Of a stretch of 64,000 nt of DNA, positions 4,736-62,354 are shown one piece after another. Where the stretch lies: positions 32,724-96,723 of the forward strand of contig CBDDAJ010000036.1 of the NCBI GenBank assembly GCA_965224845.1. Reading direction: 5' to 3'. The notes below the pieces were generated by a model, which saw nothing but the letters and a program-made list of their open reading frames with translations, was not told the origin of the DNA and did not search any database. A program made the translations under genes and the position numbers. This DNA is from Wocania sp. Lineage in GTDB: Bacteria; Bacteroidota; Bacteroidia; Flavobacteriales; Flavobacteriaceae. Position 1 is the first letter of the stretch; every line of letters begins with the position of its first letter.

Positions 4736-4874
4736 TTTTAATATTTTATTTTTAGTTACTATTATAGATTATAAAAGGGATGCAAATATAGGAATTTAAT
4801 ATTCAATATTTCAAACCTAATTCATTAAAATTTAAGATTATAAACGTTTATTTTTGTTTGCACTATTTAACTAA

Positions 4875-5918
4875 TTGATGATATTTACAAAAACAGTAAC
4901 CCACTGGTATTCAAATAATAAGAGAATATTGCCATGGAGACAAACTAAAGACCCTTATTATATATGGTTGTCTGAAATTATTTTACAACAAACTCAAGTG
5001 AAGCAAGGGTTACCTTATTACGAAGCCTTTGTTAGTAAATACCCAACAATTTTTGATTTAGCAAAAGCCAATGAAAGCGATGTGCTAAAATTATGGCAGG
5101 GACTGGGTTATTATTCCCGGGCTAGAAATTTGCATGCTACATCAAAACATATTGTTGAGGCGTTAAATGGAACGTTTCCTGCCAGTTACAAAGAATTATT
5201 AAAATTAAAAGGTGTTGGTGATTATACTGCCAGTGCTATGGCATCTATTTGCTTTAACGAAATAACCGCTGTAGTTGATGGTAATGTGTATCGTGTGCTA
5301 TCGAGATATTTTGAAATTGATACCCCTATTAATTCATCAAAAGGAGCAAAAGAATTTAAAGCTTTAGCTCAAAAATTAATTGACAAAAAAAATCCAGCTG
5401 AATTCAATCAGGCCATTATGGAATTTGGTGCTGTACAATGCCGACCTAAAAACCCAGATTGTAACGCTTGTCCATTACAAGATGGATGCCTCGCTTTTAA
5501 TAAAAACAGAGTTGATAAATTACCAGTTAAAATCAAATCTGCTAAAGCAAAAAAGAAACATTTTAATTTTTTAGTATTCATTTCAAAAGACCAGAAAACA
5601 ATTTTAGAAAAACGAAAAGGTAAAGGTATCTGGCAAAACCTATATCAATTCCCATTGGTAGAAACGAGTAAAGAACAAAGCTACGGCTCTTTTAAAAAAC
5701 ATATCCAATCACATCATTTATTAAATAAAGTTGTTTTTAACTTGTCCTTATATAATAAGGATGCCATTATTCATAAATTATCACATCAACATCTATACAC
5801 CAAATTTTGGATTGTTAATACAGATGAGTTATTGATTGAAGGGGTTTCGCTTGAAAAAATTCACGATTTTCCAGTACCTATTATTATTGGCAATTTTATT
5901 GATGCATTTAACTTCTAA
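4875..5918 (+). CDS. mutY: A/G-specific adenine DNA glycosylase MutY
   Basis: HhH-GPD region (LPGVGDYTASAM...), 4Fe-4S cysteine motif CRPKNPDCNACPLQDGC, C-terminal NUDIX-like domain. Confidence 0.85.
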   Translation: MMIFTKTVTHWYSNNKRILPWRQTKDPYYIWLSEIILQQTQVKQGLPYYEAFVSKYPTIFDLAKANESDVLKLWQGLGYYSRARNLHATSKHIVEALNGTFPASYKELLKLKGVGDYTASAMASICFNEITAVVDGNVYRVLSRYFEIDTPINSSKGAKEFKALAQKLIDKKNPAEFNQAIMEFGAVQCRPKNPDCNACPLQDGCLAFNKNRVDKLPVKIKSAKAKKKHFNFLVFISKDQKTILEKRKGKGIWQNLYQFPLVETSKEQSYGSFKKHIQSHHLLNKVVFNLSLYNKDAIIHKLSHQHLYTKFWIVNTDELLIEGVSLEKIHDFPVPIIIGNFIDAFNF

Positions 5919-6115
5919 GCCATTCTTAAACACGGAGCGTCTGGGTTGCTGATTGGGATTGTTTTTTCGAGGTTTCAGGAACCTGTTAAAAGGCAAGTAT
6001 TTATTTTAAAAAATTCTACATTTTTAATCGATACATACTAACAATCATATTTTTTTATTAATTTTAAGTTTATCAAAAGCAAAAGAGTAATTTTGCATTA
6101 ATAAAATAAAAAACT

Positions 6116-49422: not shown

Positions 49423-51264
49423 ATGAAAAACAATAATGTGCTAAATTATATTAAAGATGTATTAGAACACATGCCGTCTGACTGGCTGAACCTAACAACA
49501 CATCGACTGGATATTTATGATGAAACATTAGCCAAAACTCAATTCTTAGATCAGTTTGAACTCTTATTCAAAGCCAACAACTCTAAGACGTCGGCTCTAA
49601 GTAAATTACCCACCGCCTACGACTATATTCGATTAGGCCATCCTTTATCTTGTATACTAGAATGGGGAATTGCCAGCTTAAACAAGCTAAAACCAGAAAA
49701 TGTAATCAGCTTTTCTTCAAAGACCATACCCATTCTAGCCATTCTAAGAAAAAATTTACTTGACAACAAAAGCACACAAATTATCTATACAGGCGAATTA
49801 CCTGTTTTTTTTGATGCAGAGTTACTAAAAAACATTTATGGTTATGATTTTGATCTAAAGCGTATTGAAAAAACGGATGAGATTTCTCAGTTTAACGGCA
49901 GTACCATTTTTATATCGCAACAAAATAAGATCAGCAATATTAACCTCTATCCGAATATTGATTTTTTCATTAGTAATTACTCACAGCTTGGGAGTATTTT
50001 GTTAGTAAATGGCGAACAGAACAAAAGTTATATCTCAGAAATTCAACATGTTAGAAGAAGAGAAACCATTGCGATGACGCCAGATAATTGTTTGATGGCC
50101 TTAAAATCTCTAACCCAGCAGTCTCCTTTTGATATTGATAATAATGCAGAAACCGGCAAAACGATTGTTTTAGACTCAATTGCAGCCATTACCGGTACCA
50201 CTACAAAGCCACTAGTTGGTTCTAGTGGACTATCTATTCAATACGCGATTATGATGGGGCTCGTACACGATGCATTAGAAAATCATAAAGGTAAGGCTAT
50301 CAAATTTATTGTGCCTCCAAATTGTTATGGCGGAACTAATGACCAAGCAAGGCGAGTTGCTGCATGCATAGATAATGTTGAAGTGGTAGATTTACTAGTT
50401 GATGGTAATAATAATATGGTGAGTAGTATTGATACCATTTTAGATAAAATTGCTAACGAAGATGCTATCCCATACATCATTGCCGAAATACCAACAAACC
50501 CCAGAGTTGAGGTTCCTAATCTTGTAGAACTAAAAGCAGCTTTAGCTAAAGAACGTAAAACGGCTACTGGTAAAATTGCGATAGACCCTGTTTTTATTTT
50601 AGATCAAACATTTTGTCCTAATGTGCTCTTTTTAGGTGAAGGTGAGATCCTCTCTACGGTTAGAGCTATTTCATATGTTAGCGGATCAAAATTCCCTAGT
50701 GGCGGGAAATGTACGGCTGGCTACTGTGTAGGAAATAAAAAAACGGAAGCTTTAATAAAAAAAATAGAAAAGCATCTTATGCTTTGTGATAATAAGGCCA
50801 CTAACCTTCAAATTGAGATATTGGCAAAACAGCTACCGTCTATGAATCAAAGAATACATGATGCCTATAAAAATACTCGTGAATTTGTAAATTTTATCAA
50901 TGAAACCTTACCAGAAGCGAAAATAAATTTTGTATCGCCAGCATTGGCAAAACAAGGATTTACTCCCTCTGTATTTTCATTAGATCTGCCCACTAAAGGT
51001 AATACTACCGAAGAAAAAGAAACTTATAAAAGAGCGTTGAATCTTAAATTAATAAATTTAATGATTACCAAAATTCCTAATGAAAGCAAATACTGTGTAA
51101 GCTATGGGCAGTTACGTGGATGTTATTGGACCATACCGGCAACCTCTACCCAGGGGACCACTAAAGAAGATGATAAAGATTATATTGCGCGTGTAGCTCT
51201 TTCACCTAATCTGGATCTTGAGCTTCATAAAAAAATCTTTTTAGATTTTGTTGGAACAATTTGA
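49423..51264 (+). CDS. Divergent, insertion-expanded homolog of Cys/Met-metabolism PLP-dependent enzymes (613 aa); function unknown
   Basis: Aligns motif-by-motif with the MetB-like gene in this window: YDYIRLGHPL~YEYSRTHNPT, AEIPTNP~VETPTNP, YVSGSKFPSGG~HSATKYLGGH. 4-nt gap after the ArsC-family gene. Confidence 0.4.
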   Translation: MKNNNVLNYIKDVLEHMPSDWLNLTTHRLDIYDETLAKTQFLDQFELLFKANNSKTSALSKLPTAYDYIRLGHPLSCILEWGIASLNKLKPENVISFSSKTIPILAILRKNLLDNKSTQIIYTGELPVFFDAELLKNIYGYDFDLKRIEKTDEISQFNGSTIFISQQNKISNINLYPNIDFFISNYSQLGSILLVNGEQNKSYISEIQHVRRRETIAMTPDNCLMALKSLTQQSPFDIDNNAETGKTIVLDSIAAITGTTTKPLVGSSGLSIQYAIMMGLVHDALENHKGKAIKFIVPPNCYGGTNDQARRVAACIDNVEVVDLLVDGNNNMVSSIDTILDKIANEDAIPYIIAEIPTNPRVEVPNLVELKAALAKERKTATGKIAIDPVFILDQTFCPNVLFLGEGEILSTVRAISYVSGSKFPSGGKCTAGYCVGNKKTEALIKKIEKHLMLCDNKATNLQIEILAKQLPSMNQRIHDAYKNTREFVNFINETLPEAKINFVSPALAKQGFTPSVFSLDLPTKGNTTEEKETYKRALNLKLINLMITKIPNESKYCVSYGQLRGCYWTIPATSTQGTTKEDDKDYIARVALSPNLDLELHKKIFLDFVGTI

Positions 51265-51294: not shown

Positions 51295-51386
51295 ATACAA
51301 AAGCTATGATTTATATGTCATAGCTTTTGTTTGTTTTGCTTACTCAATATGGCACCCGACACAGTCGAGCGCTAGCGGGGTTCAAT
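51295..51386. repeat. Junction module copy a: 13-bp-stem hairpin (acaaaagctatga..tcatagcttttgt) plus GC-rich box GGCACCCGACACAGTCGAGCGCTAGCGGGG; marks the island/core boundary
   Basis: Read directly. Same bipartite module recurs at 51645-51763/53174-53212, 53786-53909 and 56575-56695/58106-58148. Confidence 0.8.
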
Positions 51387-51398
51387 TTTTGATATCAA

Positions 51399-51644
51399 CT
51401 AATTTGGACGGTGACCGTTAAGACTATCTTTATTTACCATATTAATACTATCTAATTTTACTTTAATAGAGTCTACTATATTAATATTTTTCTTCTTCAA
51501 ATCAGACTTAATTTCCTGAACAGCTTCAATTGTTTTAACTGAAGCTTTTCCAAACCCAACACTTGCATTATAATAAAAAAATGCTGTTGCTATTAACAAT
51601 AAAACAAATAGCGATATTAATATAATTTTATTTTTTTTCATCAT
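51399..51644 (-). CDS. Small (81 aa) signal-peptide/TM protein; reading frame is open upstream into an rhs-derived YIYDATGVKLKKIVS segment
   Basis: ORF track. Hand translation of the upstream minus strand gives ...SYNISHIYDATGVKLKKIVS directly in frame before MMKKNK. Confidence 0.4.
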   Translation of the reverse strand: MMKKNKIILISLFVLLLIATAFFYYNASVGFGKASVKTIEAVQEIKSDLKKKNINIVDSIKVKLDSINMVNKDSLNGHRPN

Positions 51645-51763
51645 GCTTACTATTTTTTTAAGCTTAACACCAGTGGCATCGTAAATATGAGAAATATTAT
51701 AACTATATGAAATACAAAAGCTACTCTAGTTTTTAGAATAGCTTTTGTTTATTTTGCTTACTC
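51645..51763. repeat. Junction module copy b, hairpin half plus rhs-derived segment (interrupted by IS at 51764)
   Basis: gcttactatttttttaagcttaacaccagtggcatcgtaaat...acaaaagctactctagtttttagaatagcttttgtttattttgcttaCTC. Confidence 0.75.
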
Positions 51764-51802
51764 TGTCTTGTCCTGAAATAGGTTTACACAAAAGTGTAAC
51801 AA

Positions 51803-52180
51803 ATGGAAAGATATACTAAGACATCTTCATCAAAATTTCAAAATAGATATAGTGAAGAGTTCAAACAATTTTTATGTAATGAATTTCTAACGGGAACTGC
51901 AACTAGAAAATCAATCGAAAAGAAGTATAATATAGGTAATAACCAATTGACTGTTTGGTTAAAGAAATTAGGATATGACTATTCAAAACCCAGTATTGTA
52001 CCTTTGCCCTCAATGGCAAATCAACCGGACAAATTATCAAATAAAGAAAAAAACTCTTTATCTCAATTAGAGAAGGAACTTGTAGAAGCTCGATTATTAG
52101 CTGAAACTTATAGGAAAATGATTGAAATTGCAGAGAATGAATTTAAAATAAAGATTGTAAAAAAGTCCAATACCAAGTAA
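51803..52180 (+). CDS. IS3-family transposase OrfA (HTH)
   Basis: 125 aa. HTH plus leucine-zipper-like C-terminus. Slippery AAAAAAG near the 3-prime end. Confidence 0.9.
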   Translation: MERYTKTSSSKFQNRYSEEFKQFLCNEFLTGTATRKSIEKKYNIGNNQLTVWLKKLGYDYSKPSIVPLPSMANQPDKLSNKEKNSLSQLEKELVEARLLAETYRKMIEIAENEFKIKIVKKSNTK

Positions 52181-52188
52181 TCCAAGAG

Positions 52189-53100
52189 ATGAAAAACCTA
52201 TATCCAAAGGTAAGCTTAGGCAGGTTCTGCCGATTACTTGGTGTTACCCGTCAAGCATATTATCAACATTTTTGGTATCGTGAACAATTATCTTTTGAAG
52301 AAGATTTAATTGTGTCCGAAGTACATAAGATTAGAAAAAATCATCGCCATATGGGAGGCAGAAAACTATATGAACTATTACAACCATTTTTATTAGCACA
52401 TCAAATAAAAATGGGAAGAGATCGGCTATTCGATATTTTATCAGCTAATTATCTTTTGGTTAGACGTAAAAAGAAACAAACAATAACTACAAATTCTTTC
52501 CATAGGTTTAAGAAATATTCAAACCTGATTAAGAAGTTTATTCCTGATAAACCAAATCAATTATGGGTAAGTGATATCACATATTGGAAAATCGAAACTG
52601 GTTTTGTTTATATTAGTTTTATAACAGATGCTTATTCTAGAAAAATTGTCGGTTATCATTTAGCTGATAGTTTAATGACCTCAGAGACAATCAAAGCATT
52701 ACAGATGGCAATATTCAATCTACCAGAAGGCTTAATAGATAAGTCTAAATTGATACATCATTCAGATAGAGGAACTCAGTATTGTAGTAACGAATATGTA
52801 AAATTGTTGCAAACCAATAACATTGAAATTAGTATGGCTGAAAACGGTGACCCGCTAGAAAATGCAATTGCAGAACGGGTTAATGGAATTATTAAGGAAG
52901 AATATCTCAACGATTATCAATTAGAGAATATAAAAACAGCTAAAGAATTACTTGATACTGTTGTTAATCTATATAATAATGAAAGACCACATATGAGCAT
53001 AGGTAATCTTACTCCTAATCAAGTACATCAAAACAATATAAAAATCGAAAAACTATGGAAAAATTATTATCTAAAAAGCCCTATTATTGTAAACCGATAA
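52189..53100 (+). CDS. IS3-family transposase OrfB (DDE/rve integrase core; expressed as OrfAB by -1 frameshift)
   Basis: Candidate DDE residues in WVSDITY, HSDRGTQY and the ...ENAIAERVNG region. Confidence 0.9.
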   Translation: MKNLYPKVSLGRFCRLLGVTRQAYYQHFWYREQLSFEEDLIVSEVHKIRKNHRHMGGRKLYELLQPFLLAHQIKMGRDRLFDILSANYLLVRRKKKQTITTNSFHRFKKYSNLIKKFIPDKPNQLWVSDITYWKIETGFVYISFITDAYSRKIVGYHLADSLMTSETIKALQMAIFNLPEGLIDKSKLIHHSDRGTQYCSNEYVKLLQTNNIEISMAENGDPLENAIAERVNGIIKEEYLNDYQLENIKTAKELLDTVVNLYNNERPHMSIGNLTPNQVHQNNIKIEKLWKNYYLKSPIIVNR

Positions 53101-53173
53101 TAGGACTAAGAATGAATTGTAAACCTATTTTAGGATTAATGTAAAACATGTAAACTTTTTTTAGGACGAGACA

Positions 53174-53212
53174 CTCATAACGGCACCCGTCACAGACGAG
53201 CGCTAGCGGGGG
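53174..53212. repeat. Junction module copy b, box half (variant GGCACCCGTCACAGACGAGCGCTAGCGGGGG)
   Basis: Directly abuts the IS right end after the CTC duplication. Confidence 0.75.
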
Positions 53213-53249
53213 ATGACCAGTTATCCACTAATTTAATCCGTTACCACCC

Positions 53250-53762
53250 CTAATAGTTAATTAATTTAGAGGTCATATAACTTACTAAAGCTTTATCTAA
53301 GGGGTTTGGTTTTACAATTAAAGACAAACATGTTTCTCCATACTTCGAACCATTTGAATCTCTCATTACAAAATAAAACATATTTCCTTTAGCTTCTTCA
53401 TAACCTTCTTTAAAGTAGTCTGATTCAAAACCTATAAAATCACTATGGTAATTGCTTTTGTCAAAAGATTTTAAGAGAATCTTGTTTGGTTTTTTTATTT
53501 TGTTAGAAGAAACAATATTGATTTCATCTCCTTTTAATTCAACAATTATTTCATTTACATCACTCTCCTTTTTAGATATCAACAAATAAAATGTATTAGA
53601 TATTGAAAATAGCAAGTAAGGTGTATCTGTATCCTTAATCACCTTTTTAGATATTAAACTTGCCTTATTCCTACTTTCAAGTTCGTATTTATTTAATTTT
53701 TGTGCAGAACAAGAATTGCAAACAACTAAAAAAGCCAGAATAAGAATTTTTGAATACTTCAT
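53250..53762 (-). CDS. Secreted 170-aa protein (candidate orphan immunity protein)
   Basis: Signal peptide with Cys (LAFLVVCNSCSA). Sits between two junction modules in the Rhs island. Confidence 0.4.
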   Translation of the reverse strand: MKYSKILILAFLVVCNSCSAQKLNKYELESRNKASLISKKVIKDTDTPYLLFSISNTFYLLISKKESDVNEIIVELKGDEINIVSSNKIKKPNKILLKSFDKSNYHSDFIGFESDYFKEGYEEAKGNMFYFVMRDSNGSKYGETCLSLIVKPNPLDKALVSYMTSKLINY

Positions 53763-53785
53763 AATTTTAATTTCTAATTAATGGC

Positions 53786-53909
53786 GCATCGTAAATGTAA
53801 GAAATATTATAACTATATGAAATACAAAAGCTACTCTAGTTTTTAGAATAGCTTTTGTTTATTTTGCCTACTCATAACGGCACCCGACACAGTCGAGCGC
53901 TAGCAGGTG
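53786..53909. repeat. Junction module copy c, uninterrupted (rhs-derived segment + hairpin + ttattttgcctaCTCataac + box GGCACCCGACACAGTCGAGCGCTAGCAGG)
   Basis: Shows the unoccupied IS target: ...ctactc|ataacggcaccc.... Confidence 0.8.
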
Positions 53910-54158
53910 AAACATAAGATTATTAAACAATAAGTGTTTAAAACTCTTTCTATAAACTCAATAAATAATCATTGAAGTTTCTTAATTTAGTGTGGAATTA
54001 ATACAATGGAATAATGGCAAAACAAAAAAACTCAAATAGTAATTCAAATAGCAATTCTGGAAATAAAAATTCTAGTACTGGTTCTTCTACCTATAACTCC
54101 AATATCACTCGTACAGGGGCAGAATCAACTAAAGGTTCTGGTAGCGGTAATAGACCAT

Positions 54159-54659
54159 CTAAAACAGATAAAAATTAAACACTGTTAGTAAAACTAAACC
54201 TAAAAACATTAGTGATATAGAGACATAATTTAGTCTCTTCGTCCAAGTGTTTAAGTCTTGTATTTTATTATCTATGTTTTTGTGTTGACAGTCGTCTATT
54301 TTTTCTCCTTCCATTTTTTCTAACTCCTCTAAAATATATTTCTCTTCATTATTATTTGCACTATATCCAGTCATTTGAGAGATAAAATTTGATGCAATAG
54401 CTATTAAAAATGAAAGACCAGAGAATAGTAATAAATTAGGTTGGTCGATAGAAATATCTCCTGTTTTAAATTCTCTTAAGGTTTCAAAAATAATATATAA
54501 TCCAGCTCCACATATTGAAATAATTAACAAGTCCATTCTTCTTGTAGAATAGTTAGTTCTATCTCTTGTGTTTGTTAGATATTCTTTCCACTTATTATAC
54601 TTAAGTTCTTTCTTCCCTTTCATAGTATCTAAGATAGTAATTAAATTACTAAAATTCAT
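54159..54659 (-). CDS. Hypothetical 166-aa protein with two predicted TM segments (island cargo; possible immunity-type protein)
   Basis: ORF track; hydrophobic segments. No enzymatic motifs. Confidence 0.4.
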   Translation of the reverse strand: MNFSNLITILDTMKGKKELKYNKWKEYLTNTRDRTNYSTRRMDLLIISICGAGLYIIFETLREFKTGDISIDQPNLLLFSGLSFLIAIASNFISQMTGYSANNNEEKYILEELEKMEGEKIDDCQHKNIDNKIQDLNTWTKRLNYVSISLMFLGLVLLTVFNFYLF

Positions 54660-54754
54660 ACATAATACTCACTCTAACTTTTCAACACTTGAAAAACTAT
54701 TTTACTATTTCGAATAAAAAAATATAAAATCAACAATCAAATTCATCGACTATA

Positions 54755-54903
54755 CAAAAACAAAAAACGAGCGCACATATTGTACACTCGTTTCTTTTCT
54801 TAGTTTAAATATTATACAGTTTATTATTTACTTACTTTATTTCATTACCATATCATTTTATGGTGTGTGTGGATATGGAATGGATTATTTATGCGTTTGG
54901 GTT
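54755..54903. repeat. Conserved about 150-bp 3-prime cassette tail A (about 90% identical to 58256-58415), containing a bidirectional terminator aacgagcgcacatattgtacactcgtt
   Basis: Read directly; aligned by eye to copy B. Confidence 0.75.
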
Positions 54904-54905
54904 CT

Positions 54906-55241
54906 CTATTTACATTTCTCTATTCCTAAAATCTTATATAAATTTCTTTTCGAAATAAATACTTCTTTGTTTTTAACAAACAAATCTTCATCAATATAGA
55001 AAACAAGAGTGTCTTCTTCTTTGATAGCCTTTATGCTATAAGTAGTATTATATTTTAAATAAACATCATTGAGTTTAGAGTTTTTAATCGCTCTCTCAAA
55101 TTGATTAATTGTCTTTTCATCATCAATTCTTTTTTGAAAAGTATCACACCCATAAATTTCAAGTGCTATAAATTCATTTTTAATATAATTATTACAATTA
55201 GAAAATAGAAATACAATTAGTAATGTTAAATATAGTCTCAT
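54906..55241 (-). CDS. Putative immunity lipoprotein (111 aa) for the orphan Rhs toxin tip
   Basis: Lipobox LFSNC. Immediately (1 nt) downstream of the orphan rhs-CT ORF. Confidence 0.5.
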   Translation of the reverse strand: MRLYLTLLIVFLFSNCNNYIKNEFIALEIYGCDTFQKRIDDEKTINQFERAIKNSKLNDVYLKYNTTYSIKAIKEEDTLVFYIDEDLFVKNKEVFISKRNLYKILGIEKCK

Positions 55242-56369
55242 TTAATCCATTTTTATTTTATCAAACCACGTCAAGCTTTTTGTTTTTTCATCGTGTACTT
55301 TTTGTGCGCTCTTATTAACTTTTTCGCCAGGGTCTACTATTACAGTTGAGCCTTTAATTCTTCCCAAATCTCTAAAGAGTTTTGTTTGCGTTCTAACAGT
55401 TTTTTTTCTGTCTTTATAATCAATAACAGATTCTTTACCAAAGCTATCAAGTTTTTTAGGAAAAGCTCTCATGCAAAAATCTGAACAATTGTTATCAATA
55501 AAATTATAAAATTCTGTTCCTTCTTTTTGTTCTAGTAACTTTTTAGCTTTTTCATCATATTTACCAGATGTTTTTATTTGAATAGCTCCGTCAAATGATG
55601 AAATACCCTTTATAGAATTATTCTTTATATCTTCCAATGTTACTCCCTCTTGAATGCCTACATCTCCTTTTACTGTTTTGTTAAAAGATTTTAATGAAAT
55701 TCTATTATCACGTCCACCTGCTGGTGAAAAATCGTATAGAGTATATGTTCCATCTTCAATATAATTACCATCTTTATCCTCTAAATAGTTTCCTTCATCA
55801 TCTTTTTTGTAATTTGAAACCGCTAAAGCCGCATGTCCAACATCTTCTCTTCCTTCTCCTGGCAACCAAATAATCAAAATAACATCATTACCATCTGGGT
55901 CAATGACATTAATTGGATTGTTAATGGCATAATTGTATGGAGATTTATCAAAATGATTTTCAGATAATAAATCTAAATTCATCCACCTGCCCAAAGCAGC
56001 ATCATAATTCCTAGCAGTTACATCATACCAGCCTAATCCTAACTCATCCTGATACTCCTTACCACCAAACTTATACTTAAGCGCTGGACTCGTAGAATTA
56101 ACCACCGTATTATACCCTTTATGTTTAAGTCCAAAGGGATAGTAGTTGTTTTCTTCCAGGATTTCAGAAGTTGTTATAACACCATTATTGTTATTATCCT
56201 TATAACTCAACCTTATATTCCCTAAATGGTCTTTATATTGATATACATAGCTATAACTGCTCCCATTAACATCTACATAGCCTTCCGGGTGGGAATACTG
56301 TATATTCCTTAAAATACCACTATTAAAACGCCCCTTTTCACCCCATACTTTAAAATAAAAAGAAGCCAT
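55242..56369 (-). CDS. Orphan Rhs C-terminal cassette: end of RHS core plus distinct about 200-aa toxin domain
   Basis: Region HPEGYVDVNGSSYSYVYQYKDHLGNIRLSYKDNNNNGVITTSEILEENNYYPFGLKHKGYN is near-identical to the main RHS protein, followed by ARNYDAALGRW...NNPINVIDPDGN and a unique C-terminus. Confidence 0.75.
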   Translation of the reverse strand: MASFYFKVWGEKGRFNSGILRNIQYSHPEGYVDVNGSSYSYVYQYKDHLGNIRLSYKDNNNNGVITTSEILEENNYYPFGLKHKGYNTVVNSTSPALKYKFGGKEYQDELGLGWYDVTARNYDAALGRWMNLDLLSENHFDKSPYNYAINNPINVIDPDGNDVILIIWLPGEGREDVGHAALAVSNYKKDDEGNYLEDKDGNYIEDGTYTLYDFSPAGGRDNRISLKSFNKTVKGDVGIQEGVTLEDIKNNSIKGISSFDGAIQIKTSGKYDEKAKKLLEQKEGTEFYNFIDNNCSDFCMRAFPKKLDSFGKESVIDYKDRKKTVRTQTKLFRDLGRIKGSTVIVDPGEKVNKSAQKVHDEKTKSLTWFDKIKMD

Positions 56370-56692
56370 AGCTACAGCTATGCTTTAGTTTTCTTTTTCG
56401 CCTGAGGCAAAAATCATTCGTTTTTATTACATGCCATTTTAAGCAATATCCAGTATACAGAATTTCAATGAACCGTTTTACTCACACCATTCTATTTGAT
56501 AAATAAGTGTTCGTGAACCTCATTTTATTTCGGTTTCGTATACATAATTGCCTACATAATCAGTTGTTGCTCCCGTGCTTACTATTTTTTTAAGCTTAAC
56601 ACCAGTGGCATCGTAAATGTAAGAAATATTATAACTTTATAAAACACAAAAGCTACTCTAGTTTTTAGAATAGCTTTTGTTTATTTTGCTTA
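56370..56692 (-). pseudogene. Degenerate 5-prime remnant of the orphan rhs cassette (YIYDATGVKLKKIVSTGATTDYVGNYVYE then stop and insertions)
   Basis: Hand translation. Nucleotide similarity to main rhs at 59690-59830 is interrupted by stop and inserted segments. Confidence 0.6.
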
Positions 56693-56695
56693 CTC
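56575..56695. repeat. Junction module copy d, hairpin half (interrupted by IS copy 2 at 56696)
   Basis: Identical hairpin and ttattttgcttaCTC as copy b. Confidence 0.75.
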
Positions 56696-56734
56696 TGTCT
56701 TGTCCTGAAATAGGTTTACACAAAAGTGTAACAA

Positions 56735-57112
56735 ATGGAAAGATATACTAAGACATCTTCATCAAAATTTCAAAATAGATATAGTGAAGAGTTCAAACAA
56801 TTTTTATGTAATGAATTTCTAACGGGAACTGCAACTAGAAAATCAATCGAAAAGAAGTATAATATAGGTAATAACCAATTGACTGTTTGGTTAAAGAAAT
56901 TAGGATATGACTATTCAAAACCCAGTATTGTACCTTTGCCCTCAATGGCAAATCAACCGGACAAATTATCAAATAAAGAAAAAAACTCTTTATCTCAATT
57001 AGAGAAGGAACTTGTAGAAGCTCGATTATTAGCTGAAACTTATAGGAAAATGATTGAAATTGCAGAGAATGAATTTAAAATAAAGATTGTAAAAAAGTCC
57101 AATACCAAGTAA
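56735..57112 (+). CDS. IS3-family transposase OrfA (copy 2)
   Basis: Protein identical to 51803..52180. Confidence 0.9.
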   Translation: MERYTKTSSSKFQNRYSEEFKQFLCNEFLTGTATRKSIEKKYNIGNNQLTVWLKKLGYDYSKPSIVPLPSMANQPDKLSNKEKNSLSQLEKELVEARLLAETYRKMIEIAENEFKIKIVKKSNTK

Positions 57113-57120
57113 TCCAAGAG

Positions 57121-58032
57121 ATGAAAAACCTATATCCAAAGGTAAGCTTAGGCAGGTTCTGCCGATTACTTGGTGTTACCCGTCAAGCATATTATCAACA
57201 TTTTTGGTATCGTGAACAATTATCTTTTGAAGAAGATTTAATTGTGTCCGAAGTACATAAGATTAGAAAAAATCATCGCCATATGGGAGGCAGAAAACTA
57301 TATGAACTATTACAACCATTTTTATTAGCACATCAAATAAAAATGGGAAGAGATCGGCTATTCGATATTTTATCAGCTAATTATCTTTTGGTTAGACGTA
57401 AAAAGAAACAAACAATAACTACAAATTCTTTCCATAGGTTTAAGAAATATTCAAACCTGATTAAGAAGTTTATTCCTGATAAACCAAATCAATTATGGGT
57501 AAGTGATATCACATATTGGAAAATCGAAACTGGTTTTGTTTATATTAGTTTTATAACAGATGCTTATTCTAGAAAAATTGTCGGTTATCATTTAGCTGAT
57601 AGTTTAATGACCTCAGAGACAATCAAAGCATTACAGATGGCAATATTCAATCTACCAGAAGGCTTAATAGATAAGTCTAAATTGATACATCATTCAGATA
57701 GAGGAACTCAGTATTGTAGTAACGAATATGTAAAATTGTTGCAAACCAATAACATTGAAATTAGTATGGCTGAAAACGGTGACCCGCTAGAAAATGCAAT
57801 TGCAGAACGGGTTAATGGAATTATTAAGGAAGAATATCTCAACGATTATCAATTAGAGAATATAAAAACAGCTAAAGAATTACTTGATACTGTTGTTAAT
57901 CTATATAATAATGAAAGACCACATATGAGCATAGGTAATCTTACTCCTAATCAAGTACATCAAAACAATATAAAAATCGAAAAACTATGGAAAAATTATT
58001 ATCTAAAAAGCCCTATTATTGTAAACCGATAA
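57121..58032 (+). CDS. IS3-family transposase OrfB (copy 2)
   Basis: Protein identical to 52189..53100. Confidence 0.9.
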   Translation: MKNLYPKVSLGRFCRLLGVTRQAYYQHFWYREQLSFEEDLIVSEVHKIRKNHRHMGGRKLYELLQPFLLAHQIKMGRDRLFDILSANYLLVRRKKKQTITTNSFHRFKKYSNLIKKFIPDKPNQLWVSDITYWKIETGFVYISFITDAYSRKIVGYHLADSLMTSETIKALQMAIFNLPEGLIDKSKLIHHSDRGTQYCSNEYVKLLQTNNIEISMAENGDPLENAIAERVNGIIKEEYLNDYQLENIKTAKELLDTVVNLYNNERPHMSIGNLTPNQVHQNNIKIEKLWKNYYLKSPIIVNR

Positions 58033-58105
58033 TAGGACTAAGAATGAATTGTAAACCTATTTTAGGATTAATGTAAAACATGTAAACTTTTTTTAGGACG
58101 AGACA

Positions 58106-58148
58106 CTCATAACGGCACCCGTCACAGACGAGCGCTAGCAGGTTATTC
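58106..58148. repeat. Junction module copy d, box half (variant GGCACCCGTCACAGACGAGCGCTAGCAGG)
   Basis: Abuts the IS copy 2 right end. Confidence 0.75.
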
Positions 58149-58255: not shown

Positions 58256-58415
58256 ACAAAACAAAAAACGAGCGCACATTAAGTACACTCGTTTTCTTTT
58301 CTTAGTTTAATATATTATACAGTTATTTACTTATCTTACTTTATTTCATTTACCATATCTAGTGATGTGTGTGGATATGGAATGGATTATTTATGCGTTT
58401 GGGTTAATAAATAAA
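58256..58415. repeat. Conserved 3-prime cassette tail B (pairs with 54755-54903) with bidirectional terminator
   Basis: Aligned by eye; about 90% identity over about 150 bp. Confidence 0.75.
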
Positions 58416-58763: not shown

Positions 58764-61700
58764 TTATAATTTCTCTTCTTCTATCCCTTTTGGTTCTAGG
58801 TTATTAACTGGTTCTACTTTTTCTCTACTCCCATCAGGATTAATATTATTTACCCTTACAGGCGAATTGGGGTCACTAGGAACATTTGTTGAAACTATGG
58901 TTACTTTTCCAGTTATAGGGTCTATTTTTTGAACAGTTCCACTTGGTGTAACAACATAAGTCGGCAATCCAATTTCCTTAGTTCTTTCTACATCGTTATA
59001 AGATGGCTCATTATCAGCATCCGTCTCTCCCTCAATAGTTTCCTTTTCATCATTTCCGTGAGTATGAATATCTCCTGAAGGCTCACTACCTTTCGGAATT
59101 GAGCTTTCATCTGGGATAAAAGCACCAGCCTCACTACCTATTAACGGTTCAACATAGGAATATGTTGTTTCGCCATTTTTTGTAGTAGAATAGAAAATAG
59201 AAGCATACTCTCTTTTACTTGTTATTGAAACTCCATTATATTGTTTTCCAAAATTTACTGCTGCATCATCAACAGATTTATGAACAGAATGTGGCTCTAA
59301 ACCTTCAAGTTCTCTAGCATCTATGACTCTATTTCCACTAAATACATATGGTCCCCAATCCATATATTCTTCTGTTAATGGGTCTATTGTCATAAATCTA
59401 CCAATTGCTGGGTCGTGATTTCTCCATTTAAATTGTATCCAGTTTAACCCTAACTCATTTTGTTCTTCTTGCTCTTGGAATCCATACGGATGGTCTGTAC
59501 CATTTATAACATTGTTATACCCTTTATGTTTCAGTCCAAATGGATAGTAGTTGTTTTCTTCCAGGATTTCAGAAGTTGTTATAACACCATTATTGTTATT
59601 ATCCTTATAACTCAACCTTATATTCCCTAAATGGTCTTTGTATTGATATACATAGCTATAACTGCTCCCATTAACATCTACATAACCTTCCGGGTGATTA
59701 AAGAATTTCAAAGAACCGCCTTCGTATACATAATTGCCTGCATAATCAGTGGTAGTTGATGTACTACTATTGTTATACACAAGCTTTCTCAGTTTTATGC
59801 CTGTGGCATCATAAATATACTTAATTTTTTTGTTATTATTGTTATCAAATTTTACTTCATCAGGAAGATTTAAATGGTTATAGCTAACCCCATTAACTGA
59901 GGCAGTACCAATGCCCTTATTCAAGTCTTTAACCATATTGCCGTTAGCATCATAAGTGTATTCTGTGGTTGTATTAGAGCCATCTTTAAAGCCATAAGTA
60001 TCATTTCCATTATCTAATACTTTTTTAAGCCTATTACTATTGGTTTCATAGGTATAAACCAGATTGTCCATCACCCCAAAACTTGTAGCTCCACTATTGG
60101 TATGTCCTCTTCTCTGTAAATCAGTGATGTTTCCATTCTTATCATAGGCAACCGAGGTTAGGTTATAATTACTGGTATTCCCCGTAGCTCCTGTAATTCT
60201 ATTTAAAGCATCGTAAGTATATTTATACCACTTTAAGCCCTGGTCTGTGTTTTTGGTCTTCCACTCGGTCTCAGAGATATTGCCGTTATACAAAGGGGTA
60301 CCGCTATGACTAACTGTATTGTAATTTATTTTAAAACTAAATAAATCTGTTCCTAAGCTTGATGGATCATTTATTTGTTTAAGCCAGCCGCGAACATTAT
60401 AAGCGTAATTTACAGTTTGTAAGCGATTAGCATGAGATGATTTACCACCTACCCCTTTACTTTCTAACTGGCCTAAATTGTTGTAAACATTATCAACAAT
60501 GGTTTCCTGTTCTAAACTGTTTAGGGTTTGTTTTTGTCTTAACAGCCTGCCTTCATGGTCGTAAACAAAAACATCTCGTGTTGTAATGCTGGTTTGCCCG
60601 GTTTTAGAATGTGTGGTTTTTGTTTTATCAACTTTACCCACAAAATCCAGTTTGCTCTCTACAATGTCTGTTGTTTGTAAATAATCATTAATAGTTTTTA
60701 TATAAATAGGGCGTCCTTTTACATCATATCCTGTTATGGTGGTAATCCACTTTGCAGGGTTAGAGTTATCTAATACTCGTACTTTACTTCCTGTAGCCAG
60801 ACCTTTGGTTAATTTTTGAGTAGCACTCGCATTATTGTAATTAATAACCGCCTGCCCCTCGATACTGGAAGGCAGATTTGTAAATCCATTAAAGGAATAA
60901 TTATCATAATAGTTAATAGTATATACTTTTGATATGTTCGTTTTTGGATACACCAGATTATCATTACTGTAATATATATTAGCGCCTCCTAAACTAACAG
61001 ATGTACTGCTTTTAGTTACATATTGCAATGCCGTGGTATTTGCAGCATTTTGTAAAAAGGTTCTGCTAGAGTTAGTCGTTACAAGTCCGGTATAGGCTAC
61101 CCTTCCAAAAGCATCATATTTAGTGAATAGCCACGCATTGGTTGACGGGACACGTTGGTTAGCATCTTGTGTCATTATAGGCTGATCTAGCTTATTATAT
61201 ACTATATATTCACAGCCTTTACCCGGTATTTTCTTTTCTACCAGACGGTTTCTTTTATCGTAGGTATACTGATAGCACAAGGCATTAAGTTCTGAGGTGG
61301 TTGGTTTATCTGTTGTCGCTTCTGATTTTGGGGGCAATACAAAACTTAAGTTCCCATAATCATCATATACATAATAGGTGTCGTGCGCTACATTGGTTTG
61401 TGTTACACCATTTACTTTTGAGGTACCATAGCTGCGTTTTAAAATAACGCGCCCTTGCTTGTCTTTAAATTCTTCGGTGGTATTTGCTGTTCCGCTAGTC
61501 CAATTCTCATCTTTAGTAATGGTTTTATAAAGGGTACCAGCCTTATAATATCCGCCATCTACTGCTGTGTTTAAGATCAAAGCAGGCGTGTAGGTAGTCA
61601 CTCCATTTGTTGTGGCAGCACTTAAGTTTACTTCATAACGTCTTATCGTGTTTGCTGTGTTGGTTTGGTAATCAAACTTAATTTCTTTTCCGCCACCCAG

Positions 61701-62354
61701 TTTCCAATCTTTTCCCGGAGCGGCTTGTTTTAATACCCTGTTAAGTGGTGAGGCTTCAAACGCTTTTTGAGCATAGGCATTAATATTGTTTAGGACCACT
61801 GACGGAAAATCTGTAGCATAATTGGATAAATAATACTGTTTGGTTGCTGTAGCTTTATTTCCACGATAGGCGCCAATATTTCCCGTGGCTTCCATATAGG
61901 GAAGCCAGTCCTTATCGGGTCTTCCGTAAGTATCATAATCGATATGGGTAATAATATCTTTTTTGCCCGGTGCAGATTTAATCCCTATATTTTGCATGGG
62001 CCTGCCCAGGCCATCAAAATAAGTAATTTGCTCTATAACATCGCCTTCTTTAGCAGTAGCAGAATTAAAGCTCGTCATAGGTTTTTGATAGCGTCGTGTA
62101 AATACATAATTTTCATTACTAAACGTCATAGAGGTATAGGGGTCTGTTGCTGTTGTTGGTTCTATAATTTGAGCGGTAAAGGTACTACCGCTTTTTATCC
62201 ATGTATTGGGTTTTAATGTAATACTATGGGTCGCTATTAAGGTTTCTGTTCCGGTTACCGTATAGGCATTTTCTTTAACTATAGTTGTTGGTGTTTGTGC
62301 AATAACTATTTGAGCTAACAGCAAAAAGGCTATGGTATATATATATTGTTTCAT
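58764..62354 (-). CDS. RHS/YD-repeat protein (1196 aa) with Sec signal peptide, RHS repeat-associated core and polymorphic C-terminal toxin domain
   Basis: Signal peptide MKQYIYTIAFLLLAQIVIAQT. Many YD repeats (YxYDxxGR/N). Core end WRNHDPAIGRFMTIDP. Unique C-terminal about 190 aa. Confidence 0.85.
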   Translation of the reverse strand: MKQYIYTIAFLLLAQIVIAQTPTTIVKENAYTVTGTETLIATHSITLKPNTWIKSGSTFTAQIIEPTTATDPYTSMTFSNENYVFTRRYQKPMTSFNSATAKEGDVIEQITYFDGLGRPMQNIGIKSAPGKKDIITHIDYDTYGRPDKDWLPYMEATGNIGAYRGNKATATKQYYLSNYATDFPSVVLNNINAYAQKAFEASPLNRVLKQAAPGKDWKLGGGKEIKFDYQTNTANTIRRYEVNLSAATTNGVTTYTPALILNTAVDGGYYKAGTLYKTITKDENWTSGTANTTEEFKDKQGRVILKRSYGTSKVNGVTQTNVAHDTYYVYDDYGNLSFVLPPKSEATTDKPTTSELNALCYQYTYDKRNRLVEKKIPGKGCEYIVYNKLDQPIMTQDANQRVPSTNAWLFTKYDAFGRVAYTGLVTTNSSRTFLQNAANTTALQYVTKSSTSVSLGGANIYYSNDNLVYPKTNISKVYTINYYDNYSFNGFTNLPSSIEGQAVINYNNASATQKLTKGLATGSKVRVLDNSNPAKWITTITGYDVKGRPIYIKTINDYLQTTDIVESKLDFVGKVDKTKTTHSKTGQTSITTRDVFVYDHEGRLLRQKQTLNSLEQETIVDNVYNNLGQLESKGVGGKSSHANRLQTVNYAYNVRGWLKQINDPSSLGTDLFSFKINYNTVSHSGTPLYNGNISETEWKTKNTDQGLKWYKYTYDALNRITGATGNTSNYNLTSVAYDKNGNITDLQRRGHTNSGATSFGVMDNLVYTYETNSNRLKKVLDNGNDTYGFKDGSNTTTEYTYDANGNMVKDLNKGIGTASVNGVSYNHLNLPDEVKFDNNNNKKIKYIYDATGIKLRKLVYNNSSTSTTTDYAGNYVYEGGSLKFFNHPEGYVDVNGSSYSYVYQYKDHLGNIRLSYKDNNNNGVITTSEILEENNYYPFGLKHKGYNNVINGTDHPYGFQEQEEQNELGLNWIQFKWRNHDPAIGRFMTIDPLTEEYMDWGPYVFSGNRVIDARELEGLEPHSVHKSVDDAAVNFGKQYNGVSITSKREYASIFYSTTKNGETTYSYVEPLIGSEAGAFIPDESSIPKGSEPSGDIHTHGNDEKETIEGETDADNEPSYNDVERTKEIGLPTYVVTPSGTVQKIDPITGKVTIVSTNVPSDPNSPVRVNNINPDGSREKVEPVNNLEPKGIEEEKL

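What the first reader, a model, noticed from the sequence alone, without database searches (positions are those of the whole stretch)
51350..58148. Compensatory substitutions in the GC-rich box preserve a small stem (CGAC-aca-GTCG versus CGTC-aca-GACG)
The two uninterrupted box copies (a and c) read CCCGACACAGTCGAG. The two IS-adjacent copies read CCCGTCACAGACGAG. Positions 3 and 9 of the 11-mer changed together (A..T to T..A), keeping a 4-bp stem with an ACA loop, while the rest of the box is identical. Covariation of this kind implies selection on a DNA cruciform or RNA structure rather than on primary sequence alone.
Basis: seen in the sequence. Interest (0 to 1): 0.7.

Follow-up and report, generated by a model that had tools for sequence, protein, structure and literature searches.

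The report
REP hairpin repeat of Flavobacteriaceae RAYT
The GC-rich box is a copy of a small hairpin-forming repeat (a REP element) that many marine Flavobacteriaceae carry next to a domesticated single-strand DNA transposase, and the paired A..T to T..A change is real base-pair covariation in that hairpin; the kind of element is known, but this family sits unusually often inside toxin/immunity gene arrays.

Summary
Four box copies lie at 51355, 53186, 53883 and 58118 on the + strand. Two read CGAC-ACA-GTCG and two read CGTC-ACA-GACG.

The four copies alone amount to one double change. A genome-wide scan found the same box in about 50 loci from more than 12 Flavobacteriaceae genera.

It is strand-specific. 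It folds well only on the complementary strand, which in the window is the minus strand and the sense strand of the Rhs cassettes.

A REP-associated tyrosine transposase (RAYT) gene is flanked by inverted box copies in most loci that hold one. The box is therefore best read as that enzyme's cognate REP element, recognised as a single-stranded hairpin. The window itself holds no RAYT gene.

The two "IS-adjacent" copies reflect an IS3-family element that inserts next to the REP.

The most novel point is the location. The copies lie between Rhs/polymorphic-toxin and immunity cassettes, often with the RAYT at the end of the array. Verdict: new member of a known kind.

The parts
51351..51379 (-). 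REP box copy a (A-T variant). It reads GGCACCCGACACAGTCGAGCGCTAGCGGG on + and the hairpin is read on the minus strand. It marks the distal end of the Rhs cassette array, just after the + strand gene 49423-51264.
   Evidence: (D4)
51297..51350 (.). Terminator-like hairpin AAAAGCTATGATTTATATGTCATAGCTTTT plus the spacer GTTTGTTTTGCTTACTCAATAT that precedes copy a. This is part of the conserved composite module.
51644..51763 (.). Left part of unit b: an Rhs YD-repeat fragment (minus strand), the terminator-like hairpin and GTTTATTTTGCTTACTC, cut by the IS insertion.
   Evidence: (D1, D3)
51764..53173 (+). IS3-family insertion sequence, copy 1. It is 1410 bp, with orfA 51803-52180 and orfB 52189-53100, TG..CA ends and target duplication CTC.
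53182..53210 (-). REP box copy b (T-A variant), 8 nt from the IS right end.
53786..53878 (.). Unit c: YD fragment, terminator-like hairpin and spacer, not interrupted.
   Evidence: (D3)
53879..53907 (-). REP box copy c (A-T variant).
56576..56695 (.). Left part of unit d: YD fragment, terminator-like hairpin and spacer, cut by the IS insertion.
56696..58105 (+). IS3-family insertion sequence, copy 2, 100% identical to copy 1 and with the same CTC duplication.
58114..58142 (-). REP box copy d (T-A variant), 8 nt from the IS right end.
58764..62354 (-). Main Rhs/YD-repeat toxin gene (1196 aa). The boxes lie in the orphan toxin/immunity array downstream of it.
55242..56369 (-). Orphan Rhs C-terminal toxin cassette, followed by the small ORF 54906-55241.
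   Evidence: (D2)

Best explanation
The box is a repetitive extragenic palindrome (REP) of a family shared by many Flavobacteriaceae. Its unit is about 29 nt: GGCAC, a 5-nt arm, a 3-nt loop (usually ACA), a 5-nt arm, then GCGCTAGC and a G-run.

On the complementary strand it folds into a 9-bp hairpin with two conserved G.T wobbles, preceded by CCCCGCT(A). It is the cognate repeat of a single-copy RAYT (TnpA-REP, an HUH/Y1 enzyme) whose gene is bracketed by two inverted copies.

Inferred steps:
- The enzyme binds the hairpin when the DNA is single-stranded. Shape and the outer conserved bases matter; the inner stem sequence does not.
- Copies that keep the stem are the ones that persist or are propagated. 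A change in one arm is therefore seen only with its complement, whether the second change arose by selection or by template switching within the hairpin.

The A-T and T-A forms in the window are two isoenergetic alleles of one base pair (pair 9-15).

The window copies are dispersed REPs without a local RAYT. Each lies in the sense strand after a toxin/immunity cassette of an Rhs array, as part of a composite module of REP hairpin, GAGTAAG spacer and terminator-like hairpin. There it may also act as a 3' RNA hairpin.

The IS3-family element inserts 8 nt from the hairpin foot because it targets the REP. That explains why two copies are IS-adjacent.
For: Shown:
- The box recurs in 51 Flavobacteriaceae loci, about 73 exact-pattern copies in all.
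- Covariation across 54 distinct copies: pair 9-15 is UA 43, CG 6, AU 3; pair 10-14 is CG 23, UA 21, AU 4; pair 7-17 is CG 33, AU 14; pair 6-18 shows four pair types. All whole-structure measures beat the shuffles and the slid controls.
- Strand asymmetry: 34 of 54 copies are fully paired on the complementary strand against 0 of 54 on the strand as written; mean MFE is -10.8 against -7.2 kcal/mol.
- Both window variants fold to the same 9-bp hairpin: -5.8 kcal/mol as DNA and -13.5 as RNA. A single-mutant intermediate drops to -3.2.
- A Y1_Tnp protein is present: Pfam PF01797, and NCBIfam REP_Tyr_transpos scores of 81.9 and 88.5 against a cut-off of 80. Its HUH (SHVH), WQ and YIHNNP motifs are visible.
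- tblastn finds this protein in about 27 box-anchored loci.
- In 8 loci chosen through the RAYT protein alone, a box lies within about 300 nt upstream in all 8. An inverted copy lies within about 100 nt downstream in 6.
- Stems differ by genus while the outer bases stay constant.
- Inverted doublets about 123 bp apart, REPIN-like, are amplified in one MAG.
- IS right ends lie 0-9 nt from boxes in four other genomes.

Literature: Quentin et al. 2018 (PMC6006769) describe TnpA-REP subclass 2.6, mostly in Bacteroidetes, with WQ and YIH[QN]NP motifs and about 179 aa, 'flanked by atypical secondary structures' with copies elsewhere in the genome.
Against: - No biochemical evidence exists that this RAYT binds or cuts the box.
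- The window has no RAYT gene.
- Copy number looks low. Only 1-3 exact-pattern loci occur in two complete Aquimarina genomes, whereas classic REPs number in the hundreds.
- The canonical 5' GTAG tetranucleotide is absent.
- The RAYT HUH motif is SHVH, not the NH[LIV]H given for subclass 2.6.
- The hairpin lies in the sense strand after genes (81 against 37), so an RNA-level role is not excluded.
- Distinct sequences are not independent events.
Confidence: 0.8

Rival explanations
1. The box is primarily an RNA element. It would form a stable 9-bp G-C-rich hairpin in the 3' untranslated region of each toxin/immunity cassette transcript, in front of the intrinsic-terminator-like hairpin, and protect or process the mRNA. 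The RAYT link would then be secondary or only syntenic.
For: - The hairpin is far more stable on the cassette sense strand, especially as RNA: -13.5 against -7.5 kcal/mol.
- Two conserved positions are G.U wobbles on that strand.
- The upstream gene is co-directional with the hairpin strand in 81 cases against 37.
- The box is always followed by a hairpin with a T-run.
Against: - Rfam finds nothing at the box.
- The copy downstream of each RAYT is in the opposite orientation to the transcript.
- The near-invariant outer bases GGCAC/GCGCTAGC and the G-run suggest protein recognition rather than mere stability.
- Head-to-tail abutting units with a precise junction look like DNA events.
- REPs of E. 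coli are known to do both jobs, so this reading is not exclusive of the best explanation.
Confidence: 0.3
2. The box is the recombination site of an integron-like system for capturing or shuffling cassettes. Toxin/immunity cassettes bounded by directly oriented hairpins would be excised and inserted as single strands by the RAYT acting in trans, as in IS200/IS605 peel-and-paste transposition.
For: - Boxes in direct orientation separate cassettes in Rhs or polymorphic-toxin arrays in many genera.
- The RAYT often sits at the distal end of the array (L051, L054, L001, L013, L059, L056, L061).
- ORFs just upstream of boxes include Imm30, Imm33-like, Imm49 and Imm-NTF2-2.
- Abutting head-to-tail units share the junction GCTAGCRGG|GGCAC.
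- 6 of 8 RAYT-anchored loci hold a polymorphic toxin within 10 kb.
Against: - No cassette was shown in two different contexts with REP-precise boundaries.
- The RAYT position shows conserved synteny with T2SSF/pilin-like genes (L010, L061, L062). The association with toxin arrays could therefore be inherited position plus local spread.
- In the window the shared unit also includes an Rhs YD fragment, which fits ordinary homologous recombination between Rhs cores.
- L058 shows no toxin or immunity family by Pfam, and L060 is flanked upstream by metabolic genes.
Confidence: 0.2
3. The double change is a mutational by-product with no selective meaning. A single substitution in one arm would have been copied to the other arm by intrastrand template switching (quasipalindrome correction), or the T-A form would have been imported by gene conversion together with the IS.
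For: - Copies b and d are identical over the IS plus 50 nt to the left and 34 nt to the right, so they may be one event.
- Template-switch correction of quasipalindromes is an established mutational mechanism (my own knowledge).
Against: This can explain how one pair flipped. It cannot explain why 23 extra pair types are kept across genera while the outer bases stay fixed, or why pairing is strand-specific.
Confidence: 0.15

Closest known systems
REP/BIME elements and their RAYT (TnpA-REP) in Enterobacteria and Pseudomonas: the 'REPtron' (Nunvar 2010, PMC2817692; Ton-Hoang 2012, PMC3333891; structure 4ER8)
   Same: Both are short G+C-rich imperfect palindromes with conserved unpaired bases at the foot. 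Both show structure kept by compensatory change, a single-copy Y1/HUH gene bracketed by inverted copies, and extragenic locations after genes.
   Different: There is no GTAG foot; the foot reads CCCCGCT(A) on the hairpin strand. The stem is shorter (9 bp, 3-nt loop). Copy number appears low. Copies are concentrated in toxin/immunity arrays rather than spread genome-wide. The protein matches 4ER8 only weakly (E = 0.004).
TnpA-REP subclass 2.6 / Bertels RAYT group 5 of Bacteroidetes (Quentin 2018, PMC6006769)
   Same: The phylum, the protein length (185-189 aa against 179) and the WQ and YIH[QN]NP motifs agree. [quoted passage not shown]
   Different: The paper gives no sequence, covariation or genomic context in the text I read. 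The HUH motif here is SHVH rather than NH[LIV]H. Subclass assignment was not tested by phylogeny, and subclass 2.4 is also possible.
REPINs of Pseudomonas fluorescens (Bertels and Rainey 2011, PMC3116915)
   Same: One MAG (L016, L039, L041, L050, L053) carries many inverted doublets of the box about 123 bp apart. This is the REPIN arrangement.
   Different: In the window and in most loci the copies are singletons in direct orientation, or head-to-tail pairs. Those arrangements are rare for classic REPs.
REP-targeting insertion sequences IS1397, ISKpn1 and ISPsy8 of the IS3 family (Tobes and Pareja 2006, PMC1525189)
   Same: An IS3-family element is found repeatedly at a fixed place relative to a REP, in several genomes.
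   Different: Here the insertion lies 0-9 nt outside the hairpin, on its 5' side as written on the + strand.
Integron attC sites and rAID-1 arrays of Bacteroidales (Ross 2019, bioRxiv 10.1101/471110)
   Same: Both are repeats between co-oriented cassettes, many of them immunity genes. The attC structure is likewise conserved while its sequence varies, and it is read on one strand.
   Different: The linked enzyme here is a Y1/HUH protein, not a tyrosine recombinase of the integrase or XerD type. No attC-like R/L boxes are present. Recombination at the box has not been shown.

Membership tests
REP element with cognate RAYT (REPtron) | Short repeated extragenic imperfect palindrome able to form a hairpin | tested here: met
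   The unit is 26 nt with 9-10 pairs. 80.7% of cells pair and covariation beats all 500 shuffles and all slid controls. The hairpin folds at -5.8 kcal/mol as DNA.
REP element with cognate RAYT (REPtron) | A RAYT gene (Y1 transposase with HUH and Y motifs) in the same genomes | tested here: met
   Pfam Y1_Tnp. NCBIfam REP_Tyr_transpos scores above the curated cut-off. tblastn hits in about 27 loci. 5022 homologues, many named RayT by their sources.
REP element with cognate RAYT (REPtron) | RAYT gene flanked by the repeat in inverted orientation | tested here: met
   Of 8 RAYT-anchored loci, 8 have a copy upstream and 6 have the inverted downstream copy. The same holds in L001, L005, L051 and L054.
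REP element with cognate RAYT (REPtron) | Conserved 5' GTAG (or GT[AG]G) tetranucleotide at the hairpin foot | tested here: not met
   The foot on the hairpin strand reads CCCCGCT(A). No GTAG is present.
REP element with cognate RAYT (REPtron) | High copy number dispersed through the genome (usually more than 100) | tested here: inconclusive
   Only 1-3 exact-pattern loci were found in complete Aquimarina genomes. Each locus holds several divergent copies. Whole genomes could not be scanned with a loose model.
REP element with cognate RAYT (REPtron) | RAYT binds and cleaves the single-stranded REP | not testable with these tools
   This needs biochemistry.
REP element with cognate RAYT (REPtron) | RAYT present near the copies in this window | tested here: not met
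   tblastn finds no RAYT in the 64-kb window. This is expected for dispersed copies and is not a requirement of the family.
TnpA-REP subclass 2.6 (Bacteroidetes) | Motifs NH[LIV]H, WQ and YIH[QN]NP; length about 179 aa; atypical flanking hairpins | tested here: inconclusive
   WQ, YIHNNP and the length of 185-189 aa fit. The HUH motif is SHVH. No phylogenetic placement was done.
Integron attC / rAID-type cassette site | Adjacent tyrosine recombinase of the integrase or XerD family | tested here: not met
   No such gene lies next to the arrays examined. The linked enzyme is Y1_Tnp. One Phage_integrase pair in L059 lies 8 kb away and has no boxes around it.
Rfam structured RNA families | Match to a curated covariance model | tested here: not met
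   No hit overlaps the box at E up to 10.

The most novel reading that the evidence does not exclude
The Flavobacteriaceae RAYT and its REP hairpins form an HUH-enzyme counterpart of an integron. Toxin/immunity cassettes bounded by directly oriented hairpins would be excised, captured or reshuffled as single-stranded DNA by the RAYT. This would give a mechanism for building Rhs and polymorphic-toxin orphan arrays, and a host-level function for a 'domesticated' RAYT.
Probability: 0.2. Interest if true: 0.8.

Novelty: new member of a known kind. Interest (0 to 1): 0.45.

Why it matters
What RAYTs and REPs do for their hosts is still an open question, and almost all work on them is in Proteobacteria. 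This family differs in useful ways:
- It is conserved across many Flavobacteriaceae genera.
- Its copy number is low.
- Its hairpin is strand-specific.
- Its copies are concentrated in polymorphic toxin and immunity cassette arrays, often with the RAYT at the array end.

That gives a concrete, testable link between a RAYT/REP system and the turnover of interbacterial-warfare cassettes. It also supplies a well-defined substrate (a 29-nt unit with natural compensatory variants) for binding and cleavage assays. Finally, it adds a REP-targeting IS3-family element outside the Proteobacteria.

Tried and rejected
- Exact-protein look-ups of the window's IS transposase and of the neighbouring 613-aa gene found nothing. 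The organism could not be named. Nucleotide similarity points to relatives of Flaviramulus and Postechiella.
- An Rfam scan at E up to 10 gave no family at the box. The weak RefA9 hits fall on the terminator-like hairpin and score below the gathering threshold.
- I considered a tRNA or rRNA fragment or an att site. ARAGORN was not run. The Rfam scan reported no tRNA or rRNA family at the box, and no sequence resemblance beyond a few bases was seen by eye.
- I considered an inversion of the central 9-mer as the source of the double change. It is rejected because the reverse complement of GACACAGTC is GACTGTGTC, not GTCACAGAC.
- I considered that the box belongs to the IS. It is rejected because uninterrupted copies a and c carry the intact target TACTC|ATAAC, and the IS has its own TG..CA ends and a 3-bp duplication.
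- I considered a segmental duplication of the IS plus its flanks. It is unlikely, with 0 mismatches in 1410 bp of IS against 6 in 157 bp of flank. Conversion of the IS with short flanks is not excluded.
- The polymorphic-toxin review (PMC3482391) holds no mention of IS200, RAYT or palindromes. A search for Flavobacteriaceae with REP and transposase found no paper.
- Four of the 55 scan loci (L017, L028, L038, L055; non-Flavobacteriaceae, no stem) were treated as chance matches. Two anchor-selected 26-mers were dropped as artefacts of the palindromic anchor.


Full report
**Observation**

CCCGACACAGTCGAG lies at 51355 and 53883, and CCCGTCACAGACGAG at 53186 and 58118, all on the + strand. There are 4 matches within 3 mismatches against 0.13 expected.

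The shared unit is longer than the box. It comprises a terminator-like hairpin, the spacer GTTTATTTTGCTTACTCATAAC, and GGCACCCG[A/T]CACAG[T/A]CGAGCGCTAGC[G/A]GG.

The two T-A copies each lie 8 nt to the right of an IS3-family element (Pfam rve, NCBIfam transpos_IS3). The corrected IS coordinates are 51764-53173 and 56696-58105. Each copy is 1410 bp with TG..CA ends and a CTC target duplication.

The two IS copies are 100% identical, while their flanks differ at 6 of 157 positions. The IS copies are therefore younger than the units they sit in. However, 50 nt to the left and 34 nt to the right of the IS are identical, so co-conversion of the box with the IS cannot be excluded. Within the window the covariation is at most one event, with a chance probability of about 0.01 by my estimate.

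**Context in the window**

The region is the tail of an Rhs locus on the minus strand. It holds:
- the main Rhs gene, 58764-62354 (Rhs_assc_core and YD repeat);
- a small ORF after it;
- an orphan Rhs C-terminal cassette, 55242-56369 (65% identical to the main gene's core end);
- further small ORFs.

Read on the minus strand, each unit runs box, GAGTAAG spacer, hairpin with a T-run, then a fragment of the Rhs YD core (YIYDATG...). No other copy of the box exists in the 64 kb.

**The family**

I scanned one genome per species for GGCACC-N4-ACA-N4-AGCGCTAGC. The four stem positions on each side were left free. The scan gave 55 loci. Of these, 51 come from Flavobacteriaceae: Aquimarina, Dokdonia, Maribacter, Flaviramulus, Tamlana, Postechiella, Snuella, Saonia, Croceitalea, Hyunsoonleella, Flavivirga, Croceivirga and MAGs. 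The other 4 look like chance matches.

The T-A form GTCACAGAC is the commonest, and the A-T form GACACAGTC is second.

I then selected copies in these loci by their outer bases only: positions 1-5 within 1 mismatch of GGCAC, and positions 19-26 within 1 mismatch of GCGCTAGC. This gave 147 copies and 54 distinct 26-mers after two artefacts were removed.

The structure tested pairs positions 1-10 with positions 23-14. Results:

| Measure | Observed | Shuffled | Shuffles reaching observed |
|---|---|---|---|
| Cells forming a standard pair | 80.7% | 67.5% | 0 of 500 |
| Cells changed on both sides | 70 | 17 | 0 of 500 |
| Further pair types | 23 | 15.8 | 0 of 500 |
| Covariation score | 0.386 | 0.150 | 0 of 500 |

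Sliding the partner columns by 1-3 positions gives only 27-42% pairing.

Individual pairs:
- Pair 10-14: CG 23, UA 21, AU 4.
- Pair 7-17: CG 33, AU 14.
- Pair 6-18: UA 20, GC 5, AU 4, CG 2, and C.A in 22.

The outer pairs also covary, although they were constrained by the selection. G2-C22 becomes C-G in GCCAC...GCGGTAGC, and C3-G21 becomes T-A in GGTAC...GCACTAGC.

**Strand**

They are G.T wobbles on the complementary strand.

For the nine pairs 2-22 to 10-14, all nine are Watson-Crick or G.T in 34 of 54 distinct copies on the complementary strand. This holds for 0 of 54 on the written strand. Mean MFE is -10.8 against -7.2 kcal/mol.

Both window variants fold on the minus strand into the same 9-bp hairpin:
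- as DNA, -5.8 kcal/mol;
- as RNA, -13.5 kcal/mol, z about -2.1;
- a hypothetical one-sided mutant, -3.2 kcal/mol.

A strand-specific hairpin argues for recognition of single-stranded nucleic acid. It argues against a duplex palindromic binding site or a symmetric cruciform.

**The partner enzyme**

ORF lists of L010 and L051 showed a 186-189 aa protein with the motifs SHVH, WQ and YIHNNP. It matches Pfam Y1_Tnp. It also passes NCBI's curated model for REP-associated tyrosine transposase, scoring 81.9 and 88.5 against a cut-off of 80. Its match to the solved E. coli TnpA-REP structure 4ER8 is weak.

tblastn finds the protein in about 27 of the box-anchored loci, usually 60-300 nt from a box. 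A homologue search gave 5022 relatives, 70-97% identical among the top 120. Almost all occur once per contig, and many are named RayT by their sources.

As an independent sample I fetched eight loci through the protein alone: Cellulophaga lytica, Psychroserpens, Aggregatimonas, Oceanihabitans, Maribacter halichondriae, Pelagihabitans and two others. All eight have a box within about 300 nt upstream of the gene. Six have an inverted copy within about 100 nt downstream.

The inner stems differ by genus while GGCAC, GCGCTAGC and the G-run stay. Examples are GAGCG-TGA-CGCTC, AAGCA-AGA-TGCTT, CTCGTT-ACA-AACGAG and CCCGTC-ACA-GACGAG.

A gene bracketed by inverted copies of a structure-conserved palindrome is the defining arrangement of a REP/RAYT unit (PMC2817692, PMC3333891). 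Quentin et al. (PMC6006769) describe a mostly Bacteroidetes subclass, 2.6. It has WQ and YIH[QN]NP motifs, is about 179 aa long, and is 'flanked by atypical secondary structures' with copies elsewhere. This family most likely belongs there, or to subclass 2.4. I did not place it by phylogeny, and its HUH motif differs.

Further REP-like traits:
- Inverted doublets about 123 bp apart are amplified in one MAG.
- Head-to-tail abutting units share the precise junction GCTAGCRGG|GGCAC.

**The IS**

Right ends of the same IS family lie 0-9 nt from a box in Aquimarina (L049, L014, L037) and Flaviramulus (L040), although the intervening bases differ. The IS therefore targets the REP. REP targeting is known for the IS3-family elements IS1397, ISKpn1 and ISPsy8 (PMC1525189).

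That both IS-adjacent boxes in the window are the T-A form could be preference, conversion or chance. The chance of picking those 2 of the 4 copies is 1 in 6. I draw no conclusion from it.

**Where the copies sit**

This is the unusual part.

- Rhs core homologues lie within 8 kb of the box in about 22 of the 51 loci.
- All three exact-pattern loci of the complete Aquimarina sp. W85 genome (L001, L023, L042) are next to Rhs fragments.
- In L051, L054, L001, L013, L056, L059 and L061 the order is toxin gene, immunity gene, then boxes between further cassettes, with the RAYT at the end.
- Six of the eight RAYT-anchored loci hold a polymorphic toxin within 10 kb. The toxins are HopBF1_kinase with Imm49, Col-Pyo DNase with its immunity gene, DUF6443/RHS, and a HINT-containing giant protein.
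- Of 57 ORFs ending just upstream of a box, most have no Pfam family. The hits include Imm30, Imm33-like, Imm49 and Imm-NTF2-2.
- The upstream gene is co-directional with the hairpin strand in 81 cases against 37.

The RAYT also shows conserved synteny with T2SSF/pilin-like genes (L010, L061, L062). Inherited position plus local spread could therefore explain part of the association.

I found no paper linking RAYTs to polymorphic-toxin arrays. The nearest analogue is the XerD-associated rAID-1 array of Bacteroidales, which has integron-like intergenic repeats.

**Mechanism**

Shown:
- a strand-specific, covarying hairpin with invariant outer bases;
- a RAYT gene bracketed by inverted copies.

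Inferred:
- The RAYT binds the hairpin in single-stranded DNA, reading shape and foot bases as E. coli TnpA-REP does.
- Copies that keep the stem persist or are copied, so the inner stem drifts only through paired changes.
- The second change may arise by selection or by template switching within the hairpin.
- An RNA role as a 3' hairpin is compatible with this and was not tested.
- Cassette mobilisation by the RAYT is the most novel reading. I give it about 0.2.

**Verdict**

The corrections are a longer stem, the opposite strand, and a RAYT rather than the IS transposase as the likely partner. The element is a new, well-defined member of the REP/RAYT kind in Flavobacteriaceae, and its genomic niche deserves follow-up.

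Noticed in passing
window 51764-53173 and 56696-58105; also L049 about 4820-4920, L014 738-779, L040 57-113, L037 3-59 and 7453-7508, L010 6090-6192, L029 3242-3935: An IS3-family element inserts at a fixed short distance (0-9 nt) from the REP hairpin in several genera. Solo copies of its last ~57 nt also occur without the rest of the IS.
   Followed up: partly
window 56292-56534: About 220 nt separate the orphan Rhs ORF (55242-56369) from its upstream in-frame YD fragment. They are absent at the matching point of the main gene (59696-59721). The insertion is unexplained and has no Rfam hit.
   Followed up: no
window 54757-54903 and 58258-58405: A conserved ~150-nt block follows two unrelated small (immunity-like) genes. 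It is 80-98% identical between the two copies and contains a terminator-like hairpin. Only weak, sub-threshold Rfam hits (L20_leader) fall on it.
   Followed up: no
L010 6585-6642; L044 15-70; L025 4518-4569; L042 about 6025-6073; L015 about 5433-5486: REP units abut head to tail with the precise junction GCTAGCRGG|GGCAC, sometimes between different stem variants. This suggests a discrete 29-nt mobile unit.
   Followed up: partly
L016, L039, L041, L050, L053 (one MAG, MFD03551.bin.3.149): Inverted doublets of the box about 123 bp apart (REPIN-like) are amplified many times between small cassettes that include Rhs C-terminal fragments.
   Followed up: partly
L061 13844-15448; L062 16102-17241; L010 1345-3655: The RAYT gene lies a few genes away from T2SSF, GspE or pilin-like genes in three genera. 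This indicates a conserved chromosomal position.
   Followed up: no
L005 6872-6946; L019 about 1462-1523; window 51297-51350, 53800-53878: The terminator-like hairpin between the box and the next gene keeps its flanks (AAAATACAAAAGC...GCTTTTGT) while its stem sequence changes between genera. It is a second covarying hairpin in the composite module.
   Followed up: no
L062 9666-9782: The A-T form of the box (AGCACCCGACACAGTCGAGCGCTAGC, two copies) lies in the same locus as other stem variants. Mixed variants in one genome are therefore not peculiar to the window.
   Followed up: no
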